Of a DNA stretch of 64,000 nt, positions 4,256 to 56,131 are shown in pieces. This DNA comes from Clostridia bacterium (GTDB lineage: Bacteria; Bacillota; Clostridia; Christensenellales; UBA1242). Location: the NCBI GenBank assembly GCA_017399265.1, contig JAFQDL010000009.1:42052-106051 (forward strand), given 5' to 3'. Position 1 is the first letter of the stretch. The number at the start of each line of letters is the position of its first letter. The notes under the pieces are model-generated. The model was not told the origin of the DNA. It ran no database searches and saw nothing but the letters and a program-made list of their open reading frames with translations. The position numbers and the translations under genes are program-made.

Positions 4256-4903
4256 CTACTCAATATTTGATATTAGAAGCTTTGCCAACTCTCCCATGCT
4301 CTGATCAATATCAAATATTTTCATAGAATATTCTTGCAGTTTTTCAACAACCTCATCAGGGATCGGGTTTGGTATCTTATAACTTAAACGATGCTCTAGT
4401 GTCGCCCAAAAATCCATACCAAGTGTCCTTATTTGGATTTCCGCCTTTATCTCTTTATAGCCAATACAAAGATTAACGGGAATTAAAACAATCATATGGT
4501 AGCTAATATATCCACACTTTTTTGGCTCAGATATATAGTCTTGCTCTTCAATTATTTGAAGCCTTCCATTTTTCTTTATAGCTTCAACTACGTTAAACAC
4601 ATCGCTAAGAAACGGACATATTATTCTAGCACCAACTATATCAGTAATGTTTTTTTCAATATCTTCAACACTGATGGGTATATGCTTTTTATTCGCCTTA
4701 CAAATAATACTATCTATCGTTTTTAATCTATATTTAATATGATCAATAGGGTTGTAAAATTGCAATATATCAAACTCATCTTTGAGTAGCGACAACTGCG
4801 TTTCTAAAATCTTCAACGCTGCATTACAATAAATAAAAAAATGATGTATACCATTGTTTTCAAGCATAGTTATTAAACTTTGTTCTTTGATTATATCGTT
4901 CAT
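4256..4903 (-). CDS. Small alarmone synthetase (RelA/SpoT-domain GTP pyrophosphokinase, RelQ/RelP-like)
   Basis: 215 aa. Motifs DIVGARIICPF, YISYHMIV and EIQIRTLGMDFWATLEHRLSYK match the RelA_SpoT synthetase fold. Confidence 0.85.
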   Translation of the reverse strand: MNDIIKEQSLITMLENNGIHHFFIYCNAALKILETQLSLLKDEFDILQFYNPIDHIKYRLKTIDSIICKANKKHIPISVEDIEKNITDIVGARIICPFLSDVFNVVEAIKKNGRLQIIEEQDYISEPKKCGYISYHMIVLIPVNLCIGYKEIKAEIQIRTLGMDFWATLEHRLSYKIPNPIPDEVVEKLQEYSMKIFDIDQSMGELAKLLISNIE

Positions 4904-10302: not shown

Positions 10303-10446
10303 GGCCTCGTGGTGTTCTTGAGATATATTTCACCATCAGACCACCCTCTTGGCCTCATGGTGTTCTTGAGATATATTTCACCATTAGACCACCCTCTTGG
10401 CCTCATGGTGTTCTTGAGATATATTTCACCATTAGACCACCCTCTT
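10303..10446 (+). repeat. 3 x 48-bp tandem repeat abutting the tRNA-Arg 5' end. Each unit starts with tRNA nt 1-12 and contains an inverted, diverged copy of tRNA nt 1-15.
   Basis: Units start at 10303, 10351 and 10399. Units 2 and 3 are identical (ggcctcatggtgttcttgagatatatttcaccattagaccaccctctt); unit 1 has 2 substitutions. The tRNA starts at 10447 with the same ggcctcatggtg. Confidence 0.95.
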
Positions 10447-10521
10447 GGCCTCATGGTGAAATGGATATCACACGAGTCTTCGGAACTCGTTTTTCGGGTT
10501 CGAATCCTGATGGGGCCACCA
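10447..10521 (+). tRNA. tRNA-Arg (anticodon UCG), CCA encoded
   Basis: Hand-folded cloverleaf: acceptor GGCCTCA/TGGGGCC, anticodon stem CGAGT/ACTCG with loop CTTCGGA, T arm TCGGG-TTCGAAT-CCTGA. 75 nt. Confidence 0.75.
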
Positions 10522-23468: not shown

Positions 23469-23646
23469 AATACTTCACCCATTTTATCTTTTAGAGTAGT
23501 ATACAACCACCCCTATATACTTTGTCAATAAAAACAATATATGTCTTTAAAATCAATATGGAAAAGTCATAAAAAATCAAAATTTTAAAATGATATTAGT
23601 TTAAAACTACTTTAATTAAAAAAACACCCCAAAGGAGTGTCTGATT

Positions 23647-23950
23647 AAGTGCTCTCGAAAGCATTCGGCCGTAGGTGTCGGGCAAGGTTCCCGACTACAC
23701 CTGGACTCTGTCCATGGGTTCGCGACGATGGTAATCGTCTATGTGTGTAACACATCAAGACCTGAGAGTAAAAAAAGTCGCACAAATTGCGACTTGTTTG
23801 GTGGTCTCTCAGGGATTCGGCCGCAGGTGTCGGGCAGGGGTCCCGACTACACCTGGACTCTGTCCACGGGTTCGTGACGATGGCAATCGTCTATGTGTGC
23901 AACACACTAAGACCTGAGAGTAAAAAAAGTCGCACAAATTACGACTTGTT
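23647..23950 (-). repeat. 2 x 152-bp tandem units downstream of tRNA-Lys. Each has a terminator hairpin, about 100 nt of GC-rich multi-hairpin sequence and a copy of tRNA nt C56-CCA.
   Basis: Proximal unit 23799-23950 begins on the plus strand with tggtggtctctcagggattcg, identical to the tRNA 3' end at 23951-23971. Distal unit 23647-23798 is roughly 90% identical, with a decayed tRNA fragment. Confidence 0.95.
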
Positions 23951-24026
23951 TGGTGGTCTCTCAGGGATTCGAACCCTGGACCCACTGATTAAGAGTCAGT
24001 TGCTCTACCAACTGAGCTAAGAGACC
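23951..24026 (-). tRNA. tRNA-Lys (anticodon CUU), CCA encoded
   Basis: Reverse complement GGTCTCTTAGCTCAGTTGGTAGAGCAACTGACTCTTAATCAGTGGGTCCAGGGTTCGAATCCCTGAGAGACCACCA folds as a canonical 76-nt cloverleaf. Confidence 0.92.
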
Positions 24027-24048
24027 ATATACTAACTTAACGCAAATT

Positions 24049-24077
24049 AGTATATACCAAAATATTCCATTTGTCAA
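24049..24077 (-). promoter_or_regulatory. Sigma-70-type promoter of tRNA-Lys
   Basis: Minus strand TTGACA (24072-24077), 17 nt spacer, TATACT (24049-24054), about 22 nt upstream of tRNA nt 1. Confidence 0.75.
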
Positions 24078-24128
24078 CGGTTTATTTTACAAAATCTTAT
24101 TATATTTTTTAAAAAATATTTTTTGCAA

Positions 24129-25358: not shown

Positions 25359-26621
25359 ATGACAACAAATCATTTAATTAATCACCTGCGAAAATTAGGT
25401 TTTAATGGAGATTTAACAGAAATAGAAAAAATGTATGCAGGCAAACCTTTTAACAGACAAGATCCAGAGTATCAAAATTTATTAAAATATTCCAATCAAT
25501 TATGTTCTGAATATTCTGAATTAAATTCTATTCCTTATAGAAGTGCGAGTCCGTCTGTACAAAAAATGATTGACAGAAAACGTAATGATATCTTAGACAA
25601 GTTGTTTCCAGGGCATGGCTTAATTATTGGGGTTGGAGATAATATTTCTGCCGTTGTTGGGATGGTCAATTTAAAAGGTATTACATATATTAATCACAAT
25701 GTAACTTTTAGCCCAGATACTTTAGTTGAAAGTGGTGACTTTTGCTTGTTTGCTCCTAATGTATGTATAGGTAATCGTGTAGAAAATTCTCAAGCTGCAG
25801 GTCGAGTAACGATTGGTGATGATGTTTGGATTTGTGCAGATGTGTCTGTAGGTAATAATACAATTATTTCCTCACAATCGGTCATTGGATTAGGCTCTAA
25901 AGTATTAAATGATACTACTATAGATTCCAATTCATTATATGTGGGAGTTCCTGCACAAAAAGTATTAAACTTAACTCCAGATTATCAAACACAAACAGGT
26001 CAAAAGCAACGAAGTCAAGAAGAAATAGATTATTTGATTAACCATTTAAAGATGTTAGGGTTTGATGGGGATTTTACTGAGTATATCAAAATGTTAAATG
26101 GTGAAAAATATAACAGTATTCAATCTGTCATTTCACAAATCAGTGATTTCACTCATAATTTGTGTGCAGAGTATAATAATTCAAAAACTCCTATTGAGAG
26201 AAAAAAGGAAATTGTAAATATATTATTTCCATACAAAGGAAAGAATTGTAAATTCGGAGATAAATTATTTGTTGACGTTATCGGTTCAGTTTCTCTGGGC
26301 GACAATGTAATTATAGGTGACGGGGTGAGTTTAGCTGGTAATGTTAGATTAGGTAACAATGTTGTCGTTGGAGACGGCTCAACGTTATTTGCTACAGGGC
26401 ATGAAGTGGCTGCACAAGGTAGACGACTAGGAAAAACTAGTACTGGAGAACTGGAAGAAATAAACACTACAGGATATATTGAAGTAGAAGATGGAGTTAA
26501 AATAGGCAATAACGTTAAAATTGTACCGAATGTTAGAATTAATTCAAACATACCATCAAACAATATATATACAAAGCATGGAAGTCTTATATCTATTAAA
26601 GATGAAAATATAATGCAATAA
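25359..26621 (+). CDS. Tandem-duplicated sugar O-acetyltransferase (two Mac-N + hexapeptide LbH modules in one chain)
   Basis: 420 aa. Residues about 1-210 and 211-420 repeat the same pattern (HLRKLGFNGDLTE... / HLKMLGFDGDFTE..., then IGD/VGD hexapeptide repeats). Confidence 0.75.
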   Translation: MTTNHLINHLRKLGFNGDLTEIEKMYAGKPFNRQDPEYQNLLKYSNQLCSEYSELNSIPYRSASPSVQKMIDRKRNDILDKLFPGHGLIIGVGDNISAVVGMVNLKGITYINHNVTFSPDTLVESGDFCLFAPNVCIGNRVENSQAAGRVTIGDDVWICADVSVGNNTIISSQSVIGLGSKVLNDTTIDSNSLYVGVPAQKVLNLTPDYQTQTGQKQRSQEEIDYLINHLKMLGFDGDFTEYIKMLNGEKYNSIQSVISQISDFTHNLCAEYNNSKTPIERKKEIVNILFPYKGKNCKFGDKLFVDVIGSVSLGDNVIIGDGVSLAGNVRLGNNVVVGDGSTLFATGHEVAAQGRRLGKTSTGELEEINTTGYIEVEDGVKIGNNVKIVPNVRINSNIPSNNIYTKHGSLISIKDENIMQ

Positions 26622-31607: not shown

Positions 31608-32612
31608 CTACGCCTCTTTATCAAAAATTTTATCTATCTGATTTCTCAATACTTGTCGTCCATCTTGAATTAAACTTTCTGGTAGTTCTACAGGAATATA
31701 TTTATCAGCATTTTTTAATAAAACGTTTCTTCTATTTATTAAATTAACAAATGACTCACCATTATCATTTACCCTATTAGCCATATCCACTGAGATAGTG
31801 TCAGCGAAATTTCTAACAAAAGAAGATAGTTCATCATTGCCTGCTTTTGCCATATTTATTAGCATATTATTGCCATCAGGATCTACAACTTCTCTTTGAT
31901 CAGGATAGTTAACAAATATTGATACTGGAGTTTCGCTTGCGCCTCCTTTATAACATCTAGCACAAATCAAACCCATAGTTTCTCCCTCAGGAGTTAATGC
32001 AGTTCTCAATTTTTCATTTTTGGCAGCTATAAAACAATTAGTAGCAAACCTACTATCTTTAGCCATATAATGCCCAATATTTGATCCAAATTCATCTTTT
32101 ATCTCGTGAATAACTGGACTTTCTAAAATTTTGGAAACTACTAAACTTCTTTGCTTATCAACCGCTTGATGAGGAAATGGATAAGCAGAACTATCAGTCA
32201 TTCGAATAGCAAAATCATCTTCAGCAATCTTAATTGCTAAATAATCAAAAGCGCAATTTATTGCATAATGACCAAAAGAAATCTTTTCACTAGATCTTCT
32301 ATCTTCTGAATAATTATCAAAAAGACAGTACTTTATCTCAGGATTTTCATCAACAATTTTGCAAAGTTTTTCTTCTAATAAACGCTTATATGTATCATTC
32401 ATTACGTCTTTTTCTCGTCTATATAAGTTTACATTGTAATCTAAACAACAAAGCGCATCGCTTCGATACCTTTCAGTGTTATCTATAATTTTACCTAATA
32501 ATTCAAAAACTTCTGCTCGTCTCTTTACACTTAGTCTATTTGGACCTTTATATTCCATCCCTCTTTTTGATTTATAATCGTTACATTTTTTGATATCACT
32601 TAAAAAACTCAT
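31608..32612 (-). CDS. Ankyrin-repeat-like protein, paralog 1 of 3
   Basis: Start moved to MSFLSD (RBS GGAGGGG). Paralogous to the next two genes. ANK-like helices (PFPHQAVDKQRSLVVSKIL, GETMGLICA, GNNMLINMAKAGN). Own TTGACA-17-TAAAAT promoter. Confidence 0.5.
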   Translation of the reverse strand: MSFLSDIKKCNDYKSKRGMEYKGPNRLSVKRRAEVFELLGKIIDNTERYRSDALCCLDYNVNLYRREKDVMNDTYKRLLEEKLCKIVDENPEIKYCLFDNYSEDRRSSEKISFGHYAINCAFDYLAIKIAEDDFAIRMTDSSAYPFPHQAVDKQRSLVVSKILESPVIHEIKDEFGSNIGHYMAKDSRFATNCFIAAKNEKLRTALTPEGETMGLICARCYKGGASETPVSIFVNYPDQREVVDPDGNNMLINMAKAGNDELSSFVRNFADTISVDMANRVNDNGESFVNLINRRNVLLKNADKYIPVELPESLIQDGRQVLRNQIDKIFDKEA

Positions 32613-32722
32613 TTTCCCCTCCATAGTTTCTAATAATAACAAATATCAATTAATTTTAACACATCCTATATCAGTTGTCAATACCCTATTTCCCCAAAAT
32701 ACTACACATATGTAATTCCTGT

Positions 32723-33694
32723 TTACGCCTCTTTATCAAAAAAATTATCTACTTTTTTTCTCATTCTTTCTTCTTGAGATTCTAATAAGTTTTGAGGGAT
32801 AACAATTGGCACATAACCCTTATTGGTAGCATTCTTATTCATAATATCAGCCAAATCAACAAAACTTTCTCCCTTATCATTTACGATATTAACCATCTCA
32901 GGAGTCAAAATTTCAGGATGTTTAAATAAATTTCCCAATTCTTGATTATTAGCCTTTGCCATTGTCATGAGCATATTATTTCCACCATTATCTACAACTT
33001 CTCTCTGATCTGGATATGCTAAGAATGTAAAAATTGAAGCAACCTCATAATCCTTAATTCTACTAGAGTCTGCACATAACAATCCCATAGTTTTTCCTCT
33101 ATGATTTTTTGCAGTTCTTAACTTTTCATTTTTTAACGCATCTAGATATAACTTAACATCATGTTTATCCTTAGCAATTTCGTGACCAATATTTTCATTG
33201 TAATCGTTTAAAATCTCATGTATATCTGATCTATTTAACATTGCCTTTACAACATCATATCTTCCTTCATAAAGTGCAAAATGAGGCATAGGATATCGTA
33301 AATAATCATATTGTAGTCTTATTGCGTAATCATCTTCTGCTATCATTAATGCCAATTTATCAAAAGCGCAATTTATTGCATGATGACCTAAAAAATATTT
33401 ACCAATATCACAATTTCTAATATTAAAAAATTTACAGTACTTAAGCTCTGGATTTTCTTCTACCATTTTACAAATTTTATCTTCAAGCACTTTTTTATAC
33501 TTGTCATTTTTTGCTGAACCCCAACCATTTTTTTCTTCCATAGCATCAAATCTATAACTTTCTGTTGAATCCAAAATTTTGTCTATCATTTCAAAAACTT
33601 CAGCTTCTCTTTTTAGACTTATTTTCTTAGGGCCTTTGTACTCTAGACCTCTTATCTTTTTAAGTTGTAATCTCTTTTTTAACTTTTCAAACAT
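32723..33694 (-). CDS. Ankyrin-repeat-like protein, paralog 2 of 3
   Basis: 323 aa. PMPHFALYEGRYDVVKAML, GKTMGLLCA, GGNNMLMTMAKANN. Own TTGACA-17-TAGAAT promoter. Confidence 0.5.
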   Translation of the reverse strand: MFEKLKKRLQLKKIRGLEYKGPKKISLKREAEVFEMIDKILDSTESYRFDAMEEKNGWGSAKNDKYKKVLEDKICKMVEENPELKYCKFFNIRNCDIGKYFLGHHAINCAFDKLALMIAEDDYAIRLQYDYLRYPMPHFALYEGRYDVVKAMLNRSDIHEILNDYNENIGHEIAKDKHDVKLYLDALKNEKLRTAKNHRGKTMGLLCADSSRIKDYEVASIFTFLAYPDQREVVDNGGNNMLMTMAKANNQELGNLFKHPEILTPEMVNIVNDKGESFVDLADIMNKNATNKGYVPIVIPQNLLESQEERMRKKVDNFFDKEA

Positions 33695-33802
33695 TTTCTT
33701 CCCTCTTTTAAAATTACATAATTTTAATTAATATTTTTGCAATAATTAAAACCTTTTCTCAGTACAAAAATTCTATCACTGCCCATATTCCTTGTCAACA
33801 TC

Positions 33803-34783
33803 TTATTTTTCAAAATAATCTACTATTGATTCTCTCATTGACTCTTCTTCTGGCAGAATAAATTTCTTTGGAATTTCTAACGGAGTATATCCTTGAGTAT
33901 TTTTATTTGCATTATTCATATTTTCTACCAAACTTACAAAACTTTCTCCGTCTGCATTTACTCGGTTAATAATATTATGTGTTAAAATTTCTGGATTTTT
34001 TAATATATTTGCTAGTTCATAGTTGTTATTTTTAGCCATTGTCATCAATATATTATTTCCTCTTTTATCTACAGCGTCCCTTTGATCAAGACATGCAATA
34101 AACGTAAAGATTGAAGCAACTTTAAAATCTTGATCTGTTCGTCCTGCACAACAATGTCCCATAGTTCTTCCATAAAAATCTTTCGCAGTCCTTAATTTCT
34201 TGTTTTTTAGAGCCTCTAGATAGCATTTTACATCACTTGAATTATCCGCTATATAATGCCCAATATTTTCATTATAATTAAACAATATCTGGTGAATATT
34301 AGAATTCTCTAATGCTTTCATTACAACTTCTGATCTTTCCATTCTACATGCGTAATGCGGAAACGGCATTCCGCAAAACTGCTCAGTCATTCTTAACGCA
34401 TAATCGTCTTCTGCAATCTGAGTTGCCAACTTATCAAAAGCACAACGAACTATATAATGTCCGAATGGAATTTTTTCAGAAAAACCCTCATCAATAACAC
34501 AATATTTTAACTCCGGATTTTCTTCCACAATTTTACACAACTCTTCTTCCAGTACTTTTTTGTATTTATCCTGCTGAATAGTCGTTCTGTTTCTGTAATA
34601 ATTAGAGTTATCCCTCAAATGAATAGCATCAGATTTATATTTTCCTGTTTTAGTTAATATCTTGTCTAACAACTCAAATATTTCAACTTCTCTTTTAAGA
34701 CTTATCTTGATTGGTCCATCATATTTAAATTTTCGTTTCATTTTGTATTCTATTTTCTTTTTTAGATCACTAAAAATACTCAT
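33803..34783 (-). CDS. Ankyrin-repeat-like protein, paralog 3 of 3
   Basis: Start moved to MSIFSD (RBS GAGGGA), matching the paralog N-termini. Own TTGACA-17-TAAAAT promoter near 34850. Confidence 0.5.
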   Translation of the reverse strand: MSIFSDLKKKIEYKMKRKFKYDGPIKISLKREVEIFELLDKILTKTGKYKSDAIHLRDNSNYYRNRTTIQQDKYKKVLEEELCKIVEENPELKYCVIDEGFSEKIPFGHYIVRCAFDKLATQIAEDDYALRMTEQFCGMPFPHYACRMERSEVVMKALENSNIHQILFNYNENIGHYIADNSSDVKCYLEALKNKKLRTAKDFYGRTMGHCCAGRTDQDFKVASIFTFIACLDQRDAVDKRGNNILMTMAKNNNYELANILKNPEILTHNIINRVNADGESFVSLVENMNNANKNTQGYTPLEIPKKFILPEEESMRESIVDYFEK

Positions 34784-35089
34784 TATTCCCTCGTTTTTTA
34801 TTAATACTATTCTGCTATTATTAAACATAATTTTAACACACGCCACGCACCCTGTCAATACCTAAAAATTTTTAAAACAATTCAACTTTTAGCAAAAATT
34901 AAACATAATTAAACTAACAGCAGAAAAATGTTTTTAATTTGCTTTGTATAATGCATTTTTTTTGATAAAATCTAAGTAGAAAAATGTGTAAGTTTTTTTA
35001 CATTTTTTGTAAAAAAAGCAAAACTCGAAATGTAACTAAATTTAGCCATTTTTCATAAATATTACAAATATTAAAATTTAAGGAATTTT

Positions 35090-36478: not shown

Positions 36479-37819
36479 ATGAATATTAATTCTATATGGA
36501 ATGCGACTTTGAATAGTCTAAAAACTCAAGTTTCATCACTTTCTTATGATTTATGGATTAATACATTAGAACCTATTGATGTTATTGATGGAGTATTATA
36601 TCTATCAACAACCAGCGCTAATGCCAAGAACAGAGTATTGTCTTTACACGGAGAACAAATCAAACAAAGTGTAAAAGCATTAACAGATGAAATCAAAGAT
36701 TTTGTTGTATTGGATCCATACGAGAAAGATGAATATTTTGAGAAATTAAAATTTGAGCAAGAAAGAAGTTTAGCTCAATCACAGAAAGTTAACAACTTTA
36801 ACAAAAAATATACCTTTGATAATTTCGTAGTTGGTAACAGTAACAAATATGTTTTTGCGGCAGCTGTAGGTGTTGCGGAACACCCAGGAAAGATCAATCC
36901 CCTATTTATCTATGGTGGAACTGGTCTTGGTAAGACTCACTTGCTACACGCAATTGGTAATTACTTAGAAGAACACAATCCAGAACTAAACGTTCTATAC
37001 GTTACATGTGAAAAATTTGTAAACGACTACATCGAAAGCATGAAAAATGGTGGAAACCACTACAATAGCAAATTTAGAGAAAAGTATCGTAATGTGGATG
37101 TACTGATGGTCGATGATATACAGATCATTTCAAAACATACCGGTACTCAAGAAGAGTTCTTCCATACATTCAATGATTTGTATCAAAACAATAAACAAAT
37201 AATAATAGTATCTGATAGACCTCCTAAAGAGATCCCTACCCTACAAGAAAGATTGGTAAGCAGATTTAGTATGGGATTTATCCAAGATATACAAACTCCA
37301 GACTTTGAGACAAGAGTAGCTATTCTACAAAAGAAAGCAGAGAATGAAAAATACATTGTCAACAAAGATGTTATCAATTACATTGCAGAAAACTTTGATA
37401 CAAATATAAGAGAGTTAGAAGGAATACTTGGTAAGGTACATTTCTATGCTTGCTTACATATGAAAGAAGTAGCTGACCTAGAGGACGTAATGGAATCTTT
37501 AAAAGATCATGTTACATCTACAAAACAAAATTTAACCACTGACCGTATAATAGATTGCGTATGTAGATACTTTAACGTGTCTCGTACAGAAATACTTGGA
37601 AAAAAGAAAAATAAGGAAATTGTTGAACCTAGACAAATTTGCATGTACATCATAGTTGAGATGTTAGCACTTCCACTTACATCTGTTGGACAGATATTTG
37701 GCGGTAAGGATCATACTACTGTAATACACGCAAGAGAGAAGGTTGCAGACCTTATAAAGAACAATAACCGTATAAAAATAGCAGTTGAGGATATAAAAAG
37801 TATGGCTTCGCGACAATAA
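36479..37819 (+). CDS. dnaA: Chromosomal replication initiator DnaA
   Basis: 446 aa. AAA+ Walker A GGTGLGKTHL, Walker B VLMVDDIQ, and C-terminal HTH (GGKDHTTVIHA). Confidence 0.97.
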   Translation: MNINSIWNATLNSLKTQVSSLSYDLWINTLEPIDVIDGVLYLSTTSANAKNRVLSLHGEQIKQSVKALTDEIKDFVVLDPYEKDEYFEKLKFEQERSLAQSQKVNNFNKKYTFDNFVVGNSNKYVFAAAVGVAEHPGKINPLFIYGGTGLGKTHLLHAIGNYLEEHNPELNVLYVTCEKFVNDYIESMKNGGNHYNSKFREKYRNVDVLMVDDIQIISKHTGTQEEFFHTFNDLYQNNKQIIIVSDRPPKEIPTLQERLVSRFSMGFIQDIQTPDFETRVAILQKKAENEKYIVNKDVINYIAENFDTNIRELEGILGKVHFYACLHMKEVADLEDVMESLKDHVTSTKQNLTTDRIIDCVCRYFNVSRTEILGKKKNKEIVEPRQICMYIIVEMLALPLTSVGQIFGGKDHTTVIHAREKVADLIKNNNRIKIAVEDIKSMASRQ

Positions 37820-37830
37820 ATGCCACTTTT

Positions 37831-38030
37831 TGTGGATATGTGGATAACTTATCCCCACTTATCCACCGACTTATACACAATTATCCTCACTATATGTAGT
37901 AGATTAGTTGACGAAAAATCGTTAACTTTAACACAATATCTTGTGGTTTTGGGAAGTTATACACATTTCCACAGAGCCCATTATATATATTAATATTAAA
38001 AAAAATAAATAAAATATAATAGGAGAGCGC
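37831..38030. other. oriC module: DnaA-box cluster followed by AT-rich unwinding tract
   Basis: Boxes versus TTATCCACA: 37831 (rc, 1 mismatch), 37839-37847 (rc, perfect), 37849 TTATCCCCA, 37859 TTATCCACC, 37871 TTATACACA, 37881 TTATCCTCA, 37957 TTATACACA, 37965 ATTTCCACA. These are followed by an essentially pure A/T run at about 37981-38025. Confidence 0.8.
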
Positions 38031-38033
38031 ATT

Positions 38034-39134
38034 ATGAAAATCGTTTGTGACGGACTTGATTTATCTGATGCAGTCTTAAAAGTAAGTAAAGCTTTAAGTA
38101 ATAAGAGTGTAAATCCTATACTTGAAGGAATTAAAATAAGTACTGATGAAGACTATTTAACATTAACAGCAACAGATTTAGAGTTAACAATAGAAAATAA
38201 AATAAAAGCAGATATCAAAATAGAAGGTGAAGTTGTAGTTCCGGGAAAGTTCTTTGGAGAATATATTAAAAAATTAAACAGAGAGCAAATAGAGCTTACT
38301 ACAGATAACCAAAACAATCTTAGTTTAAGATATGCCGACTCATTCGGTAAGATCCAATGTTATGACAGTTCAGAATATCCAGAAATTAAAAAAGTACAAT
38401 TCGATAATAGTTTCGAGATTAGCCAAAAAGATTTGAAAGAATTAATTAATAAGACAGTATACGCAGTATCAATTGATGAAACAAGACCAATTCTAAAAGG
38501 TGTTAAGTTTGAAGCAGTTGATAATAAACTTACAGCAGTAGCACTTGATGGTTTTAGATTAGCTATGGAAATAAAAGATATCCACAATTTAACTAATAAT
38601 GTGAATATCATTATACCAGCAAAAAGTTTGAGAGAAATTTCAAACATACTTAATGACACAGATGAAACAGTAAAAATAAATATACAAAAGAATAACATGA
38701 TGGTAGAAATTGGAAATTCTACAATAAGTACAAGACTACTTGATGGTGAATTTATAAATTTCAGACAAATTATTCCAAACAGTTTTGCAACAACAGTAAT
38801 AATTAACAAAGCTCAATTAGAAAATTCTATAGACAAAGCAATGCTATTTAGCAGAATTGATAAAAACAACTTAGTAAGATTTGAAGTAAATGAAAAATTA
38901 ATGATTGTATCAAGTCATAGTGAGATAGGTGAGAACAAAGATAATATTTCTATTTCATTAAATGGTAAAGAATTAACAATAGCTTTCAATGCCAGATATT
39001 TCTCAGATGCTTTAAGAGTAATCGATGAAGAATATATTAAGCTAAACTTTAATACTTCAATATCTCCATGCGTAATAACTGGCAATGAAAAAAAAGAATT
39101 TATAAACTTAATTTTACCAGTAAGGATATCATAA
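38034..39134 (+). CDS. dnaN: DNA polymerase III beta sliding clamp
   Basis: 366 aa with the typical three-domain beta-clamp pattern (PILEGIKI..., TRPILKGV..., LPVR C-terminus). Confidence 0.95.
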   Translation: MKIVCDGLDLSDAVLKVSKALSNKSVNPILEGIKISTDEDYLTLTATDLELTIENKIKADIKIEGEVVVPGKFFGEYIKKLNREQIELTTDNQNNLSLRYADSFGKIQCYDSSEYPEIKKVQFDNSFEISQKDLKELINKTVYAVSIDETRPILKGVKFEAVDNKLTAVALDGFRLAMEIKDIHNLTNNVNIIIPAKSLREISNILNDTDETVKINIQKNNMMVEIGNSTISTRLLDGEFINFRQIIPNSFATTVIINKAQLENSIDKAMLFSRIDKNNLVRFEVNEKLMIVSSHSEIGENKDNISISLNGKELTIAFNARYFSDALRVIDEEYIKLNFNTSISPCVITGNEKKEFINLILPVRIS

Positions 39135-40415
39135 ATAATATAAAAGGGTGTTAAAACACTCTTTTTTTTGTTACTATCTATATAATATGTGACAAAAAGT
39201 GTATGTATTGTAACACAACTATATTAATCCGTGACATATTTAATAAAATAAACTTATAAACTAAATATAAAACGATATATAATTATTAAATTATATTATT
39301 AAATTAAATATTTGTGATAAAAAAATAGATTTTACTTTGATTTTAATATTTAAGTATTAAAAATTTTTTAGCTTATTAATTAATTAATGATTATTATAAT
39401 TATACTAAAATTAGATTTTAATTTTAGGATTTAGCCAGGAGTAATTAAATATATTTTTAATTGAAATAATCAGCTAATATATTATGATAAAACAAATATT
39501 ATATGAAACTTGATGATAAAATATATAATAGAGATAGCATTTTAAATTAATTATTTTAAAAACTGACAAGGATTTACCTGTCAAATTTATCAAAATTGAT
39601 TTAATTTACGATTATTAAATTTTTAATATTAAAAAAATGGCTAAATTTAGGGGATATTTACCAATTTTTAATTTGTTAATTTTTTAATAATTTTGTAATT
39701 TATTATATTATTTATCTAAATTTAATAATAATTTTAATAAAAATTTACTAAAAAAACAATAAAAAATGACATATTTTTTAATATTAATAATGACATATTT
39801 TATAAATTTTAACAAAATTTTTTAATATAATATAGTCTAATATAGATAATTAGTATATTAAATAAAAATATTATTATAAAATTAGTACAATTTATTAAAA
39901 ATTAATTATAATTATATCAAATAATAGCGTGAATTAAATTAATTATTTTATTTTTAAGTGAATAATTCCTCATTAGAATTATTAAAATCGATTTAATTTA
40001 CGATTGTTTTTATAAAAACTTAAAAAAATCTATATATAAAGCCATTTTTTGCTATTTTTGATTTTGCTATTTTTTATAATTATCAACATTATTTTATATT
40101 TTGTGGAAATAATAAAAATTTTATATTATAATTATATTAATATAAACTTATGTTTTTACAAAATTTATATTTAAATAAAAATATTTTTTAATATAAATAT
40201 TTTTAATAGCTTTACAAATTTTTTGATTAATTTTTTAATTTATATTTTTAATGATATTTATAAAAATATACTCTTTTCAAAACAAAAAAAATATGGTATA
40301 ATATATGTATAAGATTTATAATTAACTAAAAATCAAATAAAAAATATTGTTTATAAAATAATATCAATTATCCACTTTTTGACATAAAATATGGATAAAT
40401 TAAATATTAACAGAG
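39135..40415. other. 1.28-kb extremely AT-rich ORF-free block between dnaN and mnmE
   Basis: No ORF of 60 aa or more on any frame in the supplied track. Contains the dnaN terminator (about 39143-39170), short internal repeats, two DnaA-box-like 9-mers (40102, 40368) and candidate mnmE promoters (TGgTATAAT at 40294; TTGACA at 40379). Confidence 0.9.
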
Positions 40416-54960: not shown

Positions 54961-55208
54961 TAAGTTTTACCTCCGATATAATTTGTGCTCATATTGTATC
55001 ATATTGAATTTTGAATTTCAATACCTAAATAAAAAATTTATTTCCATATAAGAAAATGCAAAGATTTAATTAAGGCACTTATGTCCATTATTGAAACGTT
55101 TATTAATAACTTATCTAACGATAAGAAAGATATATATAAAGAAATTTCCCCCACAGACTATCTGGTATGATAGAATAAAAAAGCATCTTCAAAAAAGATA
55201 CTTTATTT

Positions 55209-55473
55209 TTGTGTCGACGGCGGGACTTGGCTGGAGCGAAGCGTAAGTGACGGGCAGGGTACCCGGCTACAGAGCATGGAATGCGGGTGAAAGTCCTATT
55301 GAATAAAAAAAAGTATCTAAGATTAAGATACTTAAAAATATTGGTGCCGAAGGCGGGACTTGGCTGGAGCATAGCGTAAGTGCCGGGCAGGGTACCCGGC
55401 TACAGAGCATGGAATGCGGGTGAAAGTCCTATTGAATAAAAAAAGTATCTATGATTAAGATACTTAAAAATAT
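55209..55473 (-). repeat. 2 tandem units (133 + 132 bp) downstream of tRNA-Leu. Each has a terminator hairpin, GC-rich hairpins and a copy of tRNA nt C56-CCA.
   Basis: Proximal unit 55342-55473 starts on the plus strand with tggtgccgaaggcgggacttg, identical to 55474-55494 of the tRNA. Distal unit 55209-55341 has a partly decayed copy (ttgtgtcgacggcgggacttg). Confidence 0.95.
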
Positions 55474-55555
55474 TGGTGCCGAAGGCGGGACTTGAACCCG
55501 CATGGTTTCCCGCACGATTTTGAGTCGTGTGCGTCTGCCATTCCGCCACTTCGGC
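55474..55555 (-). tRNA. tRNA-Leu (anticodon CAA), long variable arm, CCA encoded
   Basis: Reverse complement GCCGAAGTGGCGGAATGGCAGACGCACACGACTCAAAATCGTGCGGGAAACCATGCGGGTTCAAGTCCCGCCTTCGGCACCA. 82-nt class II cloverleaf. Confidence 0.92.
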
Positions 55556-55915
55556 ATGATATATAGAAAATGTAAATCAAATAATATTATGTGCAGCATA
55601 GCCAAATGGAATGGCAGACCTGCACGAGCCGAGCGAAGCGAACGCCATTCTGGAAGAATATTCCGCCACTTCGGCATGATATATAGAAAATGTAAATCAA
55701 ATAATATTATGTGAGGCATAGCCAAATGGAATGGCAGACCTGCACGAGCCGAGCGAAGCGAACGCCATTCTGAAAGAATATTCCGCCACTTCGGCATGAT
55801 ATATAGAAAATGTAAATCAAATAATATTGTGTGCAGCATAGCCAAATGGAATGGCAGACCTGCACGAGCCGAGCGAAGCGAATGCCATTCTGAAAGAATA
55901 TTCCACCACTTCGGC
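55556..55915 (-). repeat. 3 x 120-bp tandem units upstream of tRNA-Leu. Each has an AT-rich leader, tRNA nt 1-16 and a GC-rich hairpin holding an inverted, diverged copy of the tRNA 5' end.
   Basis: ttccgccacttcggc recurs ending at 55555 (true tRNA), 55675, 55795 and 55915 (ttccaccacttcggc). Period is exactly 120 bp and the copies differ at only a few positions (4 to 7 per pair). Confidence 0.95.
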
Positions 55916-56131
55916 ATGATATATGAGTTTACTTTTTTTTTACAATTACAAAAAAACTAATTTTTTTAAACTGCAAAAGCATTGTATCACATTATGTAAA
56001 GAAATTGCAACAATTTTTTCACAAATTTACTAACATTTTATTTGCGGGCAGCAAAATGTTTTGTCTTTAGTGTTAAAAATTTGTATAATATTAATGTATT
56101 ACATTAATAAATACAAGAAAGGAGAAAAAAT

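What the first reader, a model, noticed from the sequence alone, without database searches (positions are those of the whole stretch)
23647..24026. tRNA-Lys(CUU) followed by two 152-bp structured units, each ending in a copy of its C56-CCA terminus
Seen directly. Reading the tRNA strand gives the tRNA, then AACAA, then terminator GTCG(C/T)A-ATTTG-TGCGAC-T7. A unit then opens with CTCTCAGG, which pairs with CCTGAGAG of the copied tRNA end. It contains four hairpins: GTGTG-TTG-CACAC; GACGAT-TGCC-ATCGTC; CACG-AACC-CGTG; CAGGTG-TAG-TCGGG-ACCCCTG-CCCGA-CACCTG. It ends in CGAATCCCTGAGAGACCACCA, which is tRNA nt 56-76. The unit also retains GGTCTTAG and TCCAGG, echoes of the tRNA 5' end and the 5' half of the T stem. 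It therefore reads like a tRNA-Lys-derived scaffold with about 32 nt replacing G53-U55. The distal copy (23647-23798) has several substitutions, some in hairpin loops (TGCC to TACC, TTG to TTA, ACCCCTG to AACCTTG), and its tRNA fragment is decayed. An independent terminator (ACACTCC...GGGGTGT-T7, about 23620-23645) closes the locus. This is the same design as at tRNA-Leu, 31 kb away.
Basis: partly seen in the sequence, partly recalled or inferred. Interest (0 to 1): 0.8.

Follow-up and report, generated by a model that had tools for sequence, protein, structure and literature searches.

The report
RtT-like repeats trailing a tRNA gene
Behind a lysine tRNA gene of an uncultured gut Clostridia bacterium sit two copies of a 152-base folded unit that each end in a copy of the tRNA's own tail, the same odd design as the long-known but still unexplained RtT repeats behind the E. 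coli tyrosine tRNA genes.

Summary
tRNA-Lys(CUU) (23951-24026, minus strand) is followed by two 152-nt tandem units. Each unit is an intrinsic terminator, a GC-rich multi-hairpin body of about 100 nt, and a copy of tRNA nt 56-76; the distal copy is decayed. The units are not a remnant of the integrase element found at this tRNA in other strains. That element sits in the anticodon loop, and the unit lies outside it.

Homologous units follow tRNA-Lys, tRNA-Leu and tRNA-Ile in three Clostridia MAG species. Their closing helix changes in step with the local tRNA sequence, and a second hairpin also shows compensatory changes.

The closest known thing is the E. coli RtT element (Rfam RF00391). It is a 178-nt unit repeated 3.1 times after tRNA-Tyr, and each copy ends in tRNA nt 58-76. 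Its closing helix is built the same way, from acceptor nt 5-7 plus the 5' strand of the T stem paired to the copied 3' strand, leaving an ...ACCA tail. RF00391 does not match the Clostridial units, and my model of them does not match the E. coli locus.

Verdict: a new, sequence-unrelated variant of a known kind, a tRNA-derived minihelix trailer repeat. Its function is as unknown as that of RtT. Mirror-image arrays upstream of tRNA-Leu and tRNA-Arg may be new.

The parts
24049..24077 (-). Sigma-70-type promoter of tRNA-Lys (TTGACA-17-TATACT). It is the only good promoter match in the locus.
   Evidence: 11 of 12 matches. No promoter-like site lies inside the units.
23951..24026 (-). tRNA-Lys(CUU) gene, ending in an encoded CCA
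   Evidence: 76 bits to RF00005
23922..23950 (-). AACAA plus intrinsic terminator 1 (GTCGTA-ATTTG-TGCGAC, T7). This is the first part of unit 1.
23799..23921 (-). Body of unit 1. It comprises the closing-helix 5' strand CTCTCAGG (= tRNA nt 4-7 + 49-52), hairpins 1-3, conserved hairpin 4 (23827-23850), a linker, and an exact copy of tRNA nt 56-76 (23799-23819).
   Evidence: Model R1, built from other species, scores it 53 bits, E 2e-11. GC is 0.59 against 0.31 for the window.
23770..23798 (-). AACAA plus intrinsic terminator 2 (GTCGCA-ATTTG-TGCGAC, T7). This is the first part of unit 2.
23647..23769 (-). Body of unit 2, the distal copy. It has 17 differences from unit 1 over the 152-nt period. 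Hairpin 4 is at 23675-23698. The tRNA 3' copy (23647-23667) is decayed.
   Evidence: R1 scores it 47.5 bits.
23622..23642 (-). Distinct distal terminator (ACACTCC-TTT-GGGGTGT, T7) that closes the locus
55209..55473 (-). Same family at tRNA-Leu(CAA) (55474-55555). Two units of 132-133 nt lie downstream. Each is a terminator, a body with hairpin 4 (GTAGCCGGG-N-CCCGGCAC), and a copy of the tRNA 3' end from C56; the distal copy is decayed.
   Evidence: R1 scores them 36.1 and 26.9 bits.

Best explanation
The two units are tRNA-linked trailer repeats of the RtT type.

**What each unit is (shown)**
- Each unit is a tRNA-derived 'minihelix'.
- Its 5' end reproduces acceptor nt 4-7 fused to the 5' strand of the T stem.
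- Its 3' end is a copy of the tRNA from C56 of the T loop to CCA.
- The two ends pair into a closing helix that leaves the ...ACCA tail single-stranded.
- In place of the T loop there is a GC-rich four-hairpin insert of about 100 nt.
- This anatomy, its conservation and its covariation across three species and three tRNA types, and the identity of design with E. coli RtT are all shown here.

**How the array forms (inferred)**
- It grows and shrinks by unequal recombination between the direct repeats, which are the tRNA 3' end plus terminator, about 50 nt.
- That would account for copy-number differences, a truncated copy in one strain, and decay of the outermost copy.
- The shared hairpin 4 probably spread between different tRNA loci by recombination at the universally conserved T-loop sequence. 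That is where every copy begins.

**What it does (inferred)**
- The unit acts as RNA. It would be made by read-through of the modest terminators from the strong tRNA promoter.
- It would be trimmed by the tRNA end-processing enzymes to a stable RNA carrying an uncharged, tRNA-like 3' tail.
- As proposed for RtT, it could then be read by factors that sense uncharged tRNA 3' ends, such as the stringent-response machinery.
For: **Anatomy and fold**
- GC is 0.53-0.59 in the units, against 0.31 for the window and 0.19-0.24 for the flanks.

**Homologous units elsewhere**
- They follow tRNA-Lys in two other Clostridia MAGs (L006/L030, L028) and tRNA-Ile in L039/L007.
- A model built only from those species finds the window's Lys and Leu units at E 2e-11 to 1e-4.

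**Covariation**
- The closing helix tracks the local tRNA:

| Source | 5' strand | 3' strand |
|---|---|---|
| window | CTCTCAGG | CCTGAGAG |
| CAMEKS | TTCCTCGGAGA | TCTCCGAGGGA |
| CAKVHF | GCTCCCT..CGG | CCG AGGGAGC |

- The closing helix has three compensatory pairs and hairpin 2 has three more.
- On the model-fitted alignment 92% of cells are paired. 17 pairs show changes on both sides, against 5.6 +/- 1.7 in shuffles and 2-5 in slid controls.

**E. coli comparison**
- In the K-12 tyrT-tyrV-rttR locus a 178-nt unit is repeated 3.1 times, with four RF00391 hits.
- Each unit ends in tRNA-Tyr nt 58-76.
- In the Rfam consensus GGGGAAGG (= tRNA nt 5-7 + 49-53) pairs with CCUUCCCC, leaving CACCACCA free.
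- RtT RNAs are real products released from tRNA primary transcripts. Members next to tRNA-Asn and tRNA-Lys genes are seen on Northern blots in Actinobacillus (PMC4986893; also PMC7542023 and bioRxiv 10.1101/2024.07.17.603846).

**Array dynamics**
- The unit is truncated in strain L063.
- The tRNA-Leu upstream array has 2 units in one assembly and 3 in the window.
Against: - No expression data exist for these units.
- Each unit is preceded by a terminator and has no promoter of its own, so transcription depends on read-through.
- The units are dispensable. They are absent at the syntenic tRNA-Lys of a sister species (L062, RNHCP 83% identical) and truncated in one strain. The distal copies are decaying.
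- Only three independent lineages are available. The pair counts come from an alignment fitted to the structure.
- G-U versus A-C counts do not tell which strand is the structured one.
- There is no detectable sequence homology to RtT in either direction. The resemblance may be convergence or a shared generating mechanism rather than a shared function.
- The function of RtT itself is unknown.
Confidence: 0.55

Rival explanations
1. The units are DNA-level products of site-specific recombination. Each would be a miniature, cargo-free integrative cassette consisting of little more than an attP (CIME-like). A tyrosine integrase encoded elsewhere would insert it repeatedly at the tRNA 3' end. The copied tRNA end would be the att core, and the hairpin GTCGGG-N7-CCCGAC a recombinase binding site.
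For: - A direct repeat of a tRNA 3' end flanking inserted DNA is the classical signature of integration (PMC4383910, PMC9897764).
- This tRNA-Lys is an active integration site. Same-species strains carry a 9.1-kb integrase/FtsK/Rep element in it.
- The outermost copy is decayed and followed by a different terminator, as expected for a displaced original 3' end.
- Hairpin 4 has the geometry of a recombinase core: inverted arms of 5-6 bp around a 7-bp spacer.
- The units are present or absent among close relatives and sit at non-syntenic tRNA-Lys loci.
Against: - No integrase lies near any array. None was found in the ORFs I scanned with Pfam (about 38 of the window's 56 ORFs of at least 120 aa; several more are covered by precomputed Pfam calls on the matching loci), or next to the arrays in L007 and L030.
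- The hairpin motif gave no real hit in the viral-contig scan, and the whole unit gave no hit in the phage and plasmid BLAST searches.
- A 152-bp circle is implausibly small.
- The arms of the real element at this site are AT-rich and unstructured.
- Compensatory changes in several non-identical hairpins are not expected of double-stranded protein-binding arms.
- The spacer of hairpin 4 (ACCCCTG) differs from the T loop (TTCGAAT), so it cannot be the crossover partner of the tRNA.
- Two arrays end in mid-unit without a tRNA fragment.
Confidence: 0.2
2. The units have no function. They would be decaying partial duplicates (pseudogenes) of the tRNA gene and its terminator, produced and homogenised by slippage or unequal crossing-over. 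The apparent structure would be inherited from the tRNA.
For: - The units are dispensable, truncated or absent in relatives.
- Edge copies are decayed.
- Copy number varies.
- Both strands of the closing helix can be derived from tRNA sequences (nt 4-7, 49-52 and 56-76).
Against: - The body stays at 53-59% GC in a 31% GC genome.
- Unit boundaries and four helices are conserved across three species.
- The 5' closing strand has changed in step with the tRNA at three pairs, although it is not contiguous with any tRNA segment that gene conversion could copy.
- The Leu unit's closing strand is antisense to the T loop and is not tRNA sense sequence.
- The same hairpin 4 is found in units of three different tRNAs.
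Confidence: 0.12
3. The unit is a guide-type RNA or a mobile hairpin. One version is a scaffold plus tRNA-matching guide for an RNA-guided recombinase or nuclease (bridge/seek RNA, omega RNA). The other is a REP-like element (GTAG plus palindrome) moved by a RAYT/Y1 transposase.
For: - The unit holds both sense and antisense tRNA segments around a conserved hairpin.
- Hairpin 4 begins with GTAG, as REPs do (the REP feature is from my own knowledge).
Against: - No IS110, TnpB, IscB or RAYT-like gene turned up in the ORFs I scanned near the arrays.
- Hairpin 4 occurs only in tRNA-linked units and is not dispersed. There are 4 copies in 64 kb, all at tRNAs, and 5 tRNA-linked loci in two whole MAGs.
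- The sense copy would target the gene itself.
Confidence: 0.04

Closest known systems
RtT RNA (rttR; Rfam RF00391) of the E. coli tyrT-tyrV operon. Related RtT members sit next to other tRNA genes in Enterobacterales and Pasteurellales.
   Same: - It lies directly downstream of a tRNA gene on the same strand.
- It is tandemly repeated (178 nt x 3.1).
- Every unit ends in the tRNA's own 3' terminus, starting inside the T loop (nt 58-76, against nt 56-76 here).
- The closing helix is formed by a 5' strand equal to acceptor nt 5-7 plus T-stem nt 49-53, paired to the copied T-stem/acceptor 3' strand. The discriminator-CCA tail is left free.
- It has a GC-rich body with internal hairpins.
- (compared)
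   Different: - No sequence or covariance-model similarity in either direction.
- The host is a Clostridia lineage, not a gammaproteobacterium.
- Here each unit carries its own intrinsic terminator. E. coli has none between units.
- Units of three different tRNAs share one conserved hairpin.
- RtT keeps an internal T-arm 5' half (CCAAGGTTCGA); the Lys units do not.
- There is no tpr-like ORF.
- Expression is not shown here.
Displaced tRNA fragments (attL/attR) of integrative elements, tandem island arrays and CIMEs (Islander/TIGER-type islands, tycheposons, ICE/IME accretion)
   Same: - Direct repeats of a tRNA 3' end mark the boundaries.
- Tandem arrangement.
- Variable between strains.
- The outermost fragment is decayed.
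- (PMC4383910, PMC5704250, bioRxiv 10.1101/2020.12.28.424599)
   Different: - The unit is 152 nt with no cargo.
- No integrase is nearby.
- The boundaries and hairpins are conserved and covary across species.
- The body is GC-rich.
- The genuine integrase element at this tRNA uses the anticodon loop and has unrelated arms.
Bacterial tRNA-like ncRNAs such as YrlA (Y RNA-like) and mascRNA-type minihelices
   Same: An acceptor/T-arm mimic ending in or near CCA, processed by tRNA enzymes (PMC4201824).
   Different: - No Rfam match.
- No rsr/Ro neighbour.
- Here the first 3 acceptor pairs are missing and the T loop is replaced by about 100 nt.
- The units are tandem and lie next to the cognate tRNA.

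Membership tests
RtT (Rfam RF00391) | Located immediately downstream of a tRNA gene, on the same strand, in tandem copies | tested here: met
   For E. coli.
RtT (Rfam RF00391) | Each unit ends in the 3'-terminal ~19-21 nt of the adjacent tRNA, including CCA | tested here: met
   Exact 21-nt copy in unit 1. E. coli has AATCCTTCCCCCACCACCA.
RtT (Rfam RF00391) | Closing helix between a 5' strand (acceptor plus T-stem 5' sequence) and the copied T-stem/acceptor 3' strand, with a free ...CCA tail | tested here: met
   Rfam consensus structure, compared with the folds and alignment.
RtT (Rfam RF00391) | Match to the family covariance model | tested here: not met
   No RtT hit at E <= 10 on 23550-24100 or 55150-55990. 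The reverse test, R1 against the E. coli locus, also gave no hit.
RtT (Rfam RF00391) | RNA released from the tRNA primary transcript by processing | not testable with these tools
   No expression data. Only a promoter upstream of the tRNA and terminators before each unit are seen.
Integrative-element att scar, genomic island or CIME | Direct repeat of a tRNA fragment bounding the inserted DNA | tested here: met
Integrative-element att scar, genomic island or CIME | An integrase (or its remnant) and cargo between the repeats, or homology of the insert to the end of an intact element | tested here: not met
   - No integrase in the window ORFs scanned or next to the arrays in L007 and L030.
- No viral, phage or plasmid match.
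- The arms of the L063 element are unrelated.
REP/RAYT elements | GTAG-led imperfect palindrome, dispersed in many extragenic copies, with a RAYT gene | tested here: not met
   GTAG plus palindrome is present. The motif occurs only in tRNA-linked units. A RAYT gene was not searched for genome-wide.
tRNA (RF00005) | Cloverleaf matching the tRNA model | tested here: not met
   Only the true tRNA scores. The units give no hit at E <= 10.

The most novel reading that the evidence does not exclude
tRNA-linked repeats may be a general, unrecognised class of element.

- Units carrying either the authentic 3' end (trailer arrays) or the authentic 5' end (leader arrays) of a tRNA are closed by an antisense strand.
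- They would spread between tRNA genes through the conserved T-loop and D-loop sequences.
- They would work as uncharged tRNA-end mimics or decoys. Candidate readers are the stringent-response factors, tRNA-end-targeting toxins, or tRNA-targeting integrases.
- E. coli RtT would then be one instance of a widespread, repeatedly evolved device.
Probability: 0.15. Interest if true: 0.8.

Novelty: new variant of a known kind. Interest (0 to 1): 0.5.

Why it matters
The RtT repeats behind E. coli tyrT have been known for decades (from my own knowledge, since 1978), yet the sources I read still describe their function and mode of action as unknown.

Finding the same construction in a distant phylum, with no sequence similarity, argues that the design is either selected or produced by a common mechanism acting on tRNA genes. 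The shared construction is acceptor nt 4-7 plus T-stem 5' strand, an insert at the T loop, and the tRNA's own 3' tail. Here it occurs at three different tRNAs, and the closing helix co-evolves with the tRNA.

This gives comparative leverage on what must be conserved: the closing helix, the free ...ACCA tail and the position in the T loop. It also supplies new, independent test cases.

There is a practical point as well. Such units break short-read assemblies inside tRNA genes (L002-L004) and can be mistaken for island boundaries or tRNA pseudogenes.

Tried and rejected
- **Collection scans with the hairpin-4 motif.**
  - Viral contigs gave one GC-rich chance hit.
  - JGI metagenome contigs gave ten GC-rich chance hits.
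  - Of 35 genome hits, 30 were chance hits in GC-rich genomes.
- **BLAST of the unit.** No match in the phage or plasmid collections.
- **Rfam in permissive mode.** Nothing for the units.
  - From memory, hairpin 4 and the GAGCGATAGCGAA module resemble Bacillus 5S rRNA. That lead got no support, because no 5S hit appeared.
- **Orthologous loci through neighbouring proteins.**
  - RNHCP relatives L061, L072, L075 and L076 have no tRNA at that place.
  - LeuRS relatives of the CAMEKS locus (L077-L080) have no tRNA-Lys there.
  - The integrase of L051 could not be looked up.
- **Plain MAFFT alignment of the Lys units.** It put the closing helix out of register between species. I replaced it with a hand alignment and a model-based one.
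- **Considered and set aside.** MITE with a target-site duplication (it would need a 37-nt duplication), integron attC cassette, IS200/IS605 PATE, Cas1-type long duplication, retro-duplication, and a split or permuted tRNA. None has a supporting gene or a fitting junction.
- **Paper not held.** The Bosl and Kersten 1991 paper is not in the library, so it is cited through secondary sources.

Full report
**1. What is there**

ARAGORN and Rfam call tRNA-Lys(CUU) at 23951-24026 on the minus strand. A near-consensus promoter (TTGACA-17-TATACT) lies at 24049-24077.

On the tRNA strand the gene is followed by two head-to-tail units of 152 nt: 23799-23950 and 23647-23798. They are 135/152 identical; TRF scores the repeat 548.

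Each unit has three parts:
- AACAA plus an intrinsic terminator (8-pair stem, T7);
- a body of about 100 nt;
- a copy of tRNA nt 56-76. The copy is exact in unit 1 and decayed in unit 2.

A different terminator (23622-23642) ends the locus.

The body is 53-59% GC. The window is 31% GC and the flanks are 19-24%.

The body folds into a multi-branch structure (-45.2 kcal/mol, z = -2.9). The 5' strand CUCUCAGG pairs with CCUGAGAG of the copied tRNA end, leaving ACCACCA unpaired.

The same arrays appear in independent assemblies, so they are not assembly artefacts. The window is a chromosomal origin region (dnaA, dnaN, gyrBA, mnmEG, parAB) of an uncultured, roughly 30% GC Clostridia bacterium.

**2. 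It is a family**

The hairpin GTAG-YCGGG-N7-CCCGR-CAC occurs four times in the window, against 0 expected. All four are in units behind tRNA-Lys and tRNA-Leu(CAA), and the stem covaries T-A to C-G between them.

A scan of one genome per species found it, apart from GC-rich chance hits, only in two other 'uncultured Clostridia' MAGs:
- behind tRNA-Lys(CUU) in L006/L030;
- behind tRNA-Lys(CUU) in L028, with at least 3 units;
- behind tRNA-Ile(GAU) in L039/L007.

In those species tRNA-Lys has a different acceptor and T stem, and the unit's 5' strand has changed with it.

| Source | 5' strand | 3' strand | tRNA positions reproduced by the 5' strand |
|---|---|---|---|
| window | CTCTCAGG | CCTGAGAG | nt 4-7 + 49-52 |
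| CAMEKS | TTCCTCGGAGA | TCTCCGAGGGA | nt 3-7 + 49-53 |
| CAKVHF | GCTCCCT-T5-CGG | CCG-AGGGAGC | the whole acceptor strand |

Further structural evidence:
- A hand-made structural alignment folded with RNAalifold recovers the closing helix, hairpins 1 and 2, a GGAC/GTCC hairpin and hairpin 4. It shows three compensatory pairs in the closing helix and three in hairpin 2.
- A covariance model built only from the other two species finds the window's Lys units (53 and 47.5 bits) and its Leu units (36 and 27 bits).
- On that alignment 92% of cells pair. Seventeen pairs have changes on both sides, against 5.6 +/- 1.7 in shuffles and 2-5 when partners are slid.
- Caveats: that alignment is fitted to the structure, and only three lineages exist.
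- Each species has its own, unrelated terminator between units.

**3. Is it the end of a prophage or ICE?**

Strains of the same species (RNHCP neighbour 100% identical) do carry a 9.1-kb element at this very tRNA. It encodes a 483-aa tyrosine integrase, an FtsK-like protein and a rolling-circle Rep.

- The element is inserted in the anticodon loop, with an 8-nt core CTCTTAAT.
- It brings its own complete tRNA-Lys.
- It has AT-rich arms unlike the unit.

The unit lies outside it, beyond attR, and in that strain is truncated after about 37 nt of body.

No integrase was found in the window ORFs I scanned with Pfam or next to the arrays in L007 and L030. Neither the viral-contig scan nor the phage and plasmid BLAST searches gave a real match.

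A sister species (RNHCP 83% identical) has the syntenic tRNA-Lys with a plain terminator and no units. So the units are dispensable and variable, but they are not a remnant of an identifiable element.

**4. Closest known thing**

From memory I recalled the 178-bp repeats behind E. coli tyrT and tested the comparison. In K-12 (L082) the order is tyrT, one unit, tyrV, then a 178-nt unit repeated 3.1 times. Four hits to Rfam RtT score 133-137 bits.

- Each unit ends AATCCTTCCCCCACCACCA, which is tRNA-Tyr nt 58-76.
- In the Rfam consensus GGGGAAGG pairs with CCUUCCCC, leaving CACCACCA free. GGGGAAGG is tRNA-Tyr nt 5-7 fused to nt 49-53.
- That is the same construction as in the Clostridial Lys units.
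- RtT also keeps a T-arm 5' half followed by an insert of about 65 nt at the T loop. The tRNA-Ile unit of L039 is built that way: tRNA nt 38-53, then hairpin 4, then nt 56-76.

RtT RNAs are reported as products released from tRNA primary transcripts and linked to amino-acid starvation and the stringent response. Their function is described as unknown. Members next to tRNA-Asn and tRNA-Lys are expressed in Actinobacillus (PMC4986893, PMC7542023, bioRxiv 10.1101/2024.07.17.603846).

RF00391 does not match the Clostridial units, and R1 does not match the E. coli locus. This is the same design without being a sequence member.

**5. How it most likely works**

*Shown:*
- the anatomy;
- the family;
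- co-evolution of the closing helix with the tRNA;
- GC-rich composition;
- variation between strains;
- identity of design with RtT.

*Inferred:*
- Arrays expand and contract by unequal recombination between the roughly 50-nt direct repeats (tRNA 3' end plus terminator). The L063 copy looks like a one-unit recombinant, and the Leu upstream array has 2 or 3 copies depending on the assembly.
- The shared hairpin-4 module moved between tRNA loci through the conserved T-loop sequence, where every copy starts.
- The unit is made by read-through from the tRNA promoter and trimmed like a tRNA.
- It presents an uncharged tRNA-like 3' tail.

I put 0.55 on this RtT-type reading. The rivals get 0.2 (a cargo-free integration cassette working only as DNA), 0.12 (functionless decaying duplicates) and 0.04 (guide-RNA or REP-like readings).

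**6. Beyond the finding**

All three tRNA genes in the window carry such repeats. tRNA-Leu and tRNA-Arg have mirror-image arrays upstream.
- Each upstream unit begins with the authentic tRNA 5' end (nt 1-16 for Leu, nt 1-12 for Arg).
- Each contains an antisense copy that pairs with that end.
- They lie between the likely promoter and the tRNA.
- The Arg unit is a 12-bp hairpin followed by ACCC. Twelve base pairs is the length of an acceptor/T-arm stack.
- I know of no described counterpart of these 5' arrays.

**7. Verdict**

This is a new variant of a known kind, and the interest is moderate.

Noticed in passing
window 55556-55924 (minus strand), upstream of tRNA-Leu(CAA) 55474-55555: There are three tandem 120-nt units. 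Each begins with tRNA-Leu nt 1-16, preceded by about 10 nt of its leader. A GC-rich hairpin body follows, which includes an antisense copy of tRNA nt 12-23. Another assembly (L068/L070) has two units. The likely promoter lies upstream of the whole array.
   Followed up: partly
window 10303-10446 (plus strand), upstream of tRNA-Arg(TCG) 10447-10521: There are three tandem 48-nt units. Each is tRNA-Arg nt 1-12, a 16-nt loop, and an antisense strand, forming a 12-bp hairpin with 2 mismatches. ACCC-TCTT follows, so the unit looks like a minihelix ending in a near-CCA.
   Followed up: partly
L063 10412-19617 (also L051, L053-L057, L060, L065-L067): Same-species strains carry a 9.1-kb element encoding an integrase, an FtsK-like protein and a rolling-circle Rep. 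It splits tRNA-Lys in the anticodon loop (8-nt core CTCTTAAT) without restoring it. Instead it carries its own complete tRNA-Lys(CUU) with a different acceptor stem (GGACCTT).
   Followed up: partly
L030 1806-2141: In the CAMEKS MAG, tRNA-Arg(TCG) is preceded by a copy of its nt 1-42 and a 220-nt hairpin-rich spacer. The spacer contains an antisense copy of tRNA nt 35-45. No integrase is nearby.
   Followed up: partly
window 55596-55640 (reverse orientation) and L039 7335-7361: A 26/27-nt module, GAGCCGAGCGA(T)AGCGAAYGCCATTCT, is shared between the window's Leu-upstream unit and the Ile-downstream unit of another species. The two copies are in opposite orientation relative to the tRNA. A similar AGCGAAAGCGAGA string occurs in E. 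coli RtT.
   Followed up: no
window 31608-34858: Three tandem paralogous ORFs (344, 323 and 351 aa) lie between gyrB and recF-like genes. The one I scanned (31608-32642) has no Pfam match, and precomputed calls on matching loci list none for its paralogues. Strain L063 has only two.
   Followed up: no
window 25359-26621: A hexapeptide-repeat acetyltransferase gene lies between gyrA and radC. It is absent from strain L063.
   Followed up: no
window 4256-4903: A small ORF of 215 aa has a RelA/SpoT synthetase domain (small alarmone synthetase type). I note it only because RtT has been linked to the stringent response.
   Followed up: no
window 38000-40400: A very AT-rich stretch (GC 0.21) holds several short tandem repeats and coincides with the GC-skew switch. 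It sits next to dnaA (36479-37819) and dnaN (38034-39134) and is presumably oriC.
   Followed up: no
L002-L004, L058-L059, L071: Several short-read assemblies of this species break inside tRNA-Lys or inside the tRNA-Leu arrays. The repeats, or strain variation at them, fragment assemblies.
   Followed up: no
L079 6450-6660: Two direct repeats of about 150 nt, each with a hairpin (GCGGAAAAA...TTTTTCCGC), lie downstream of leuS in a related species. They are not tRNA-linked.
   Followed up: no
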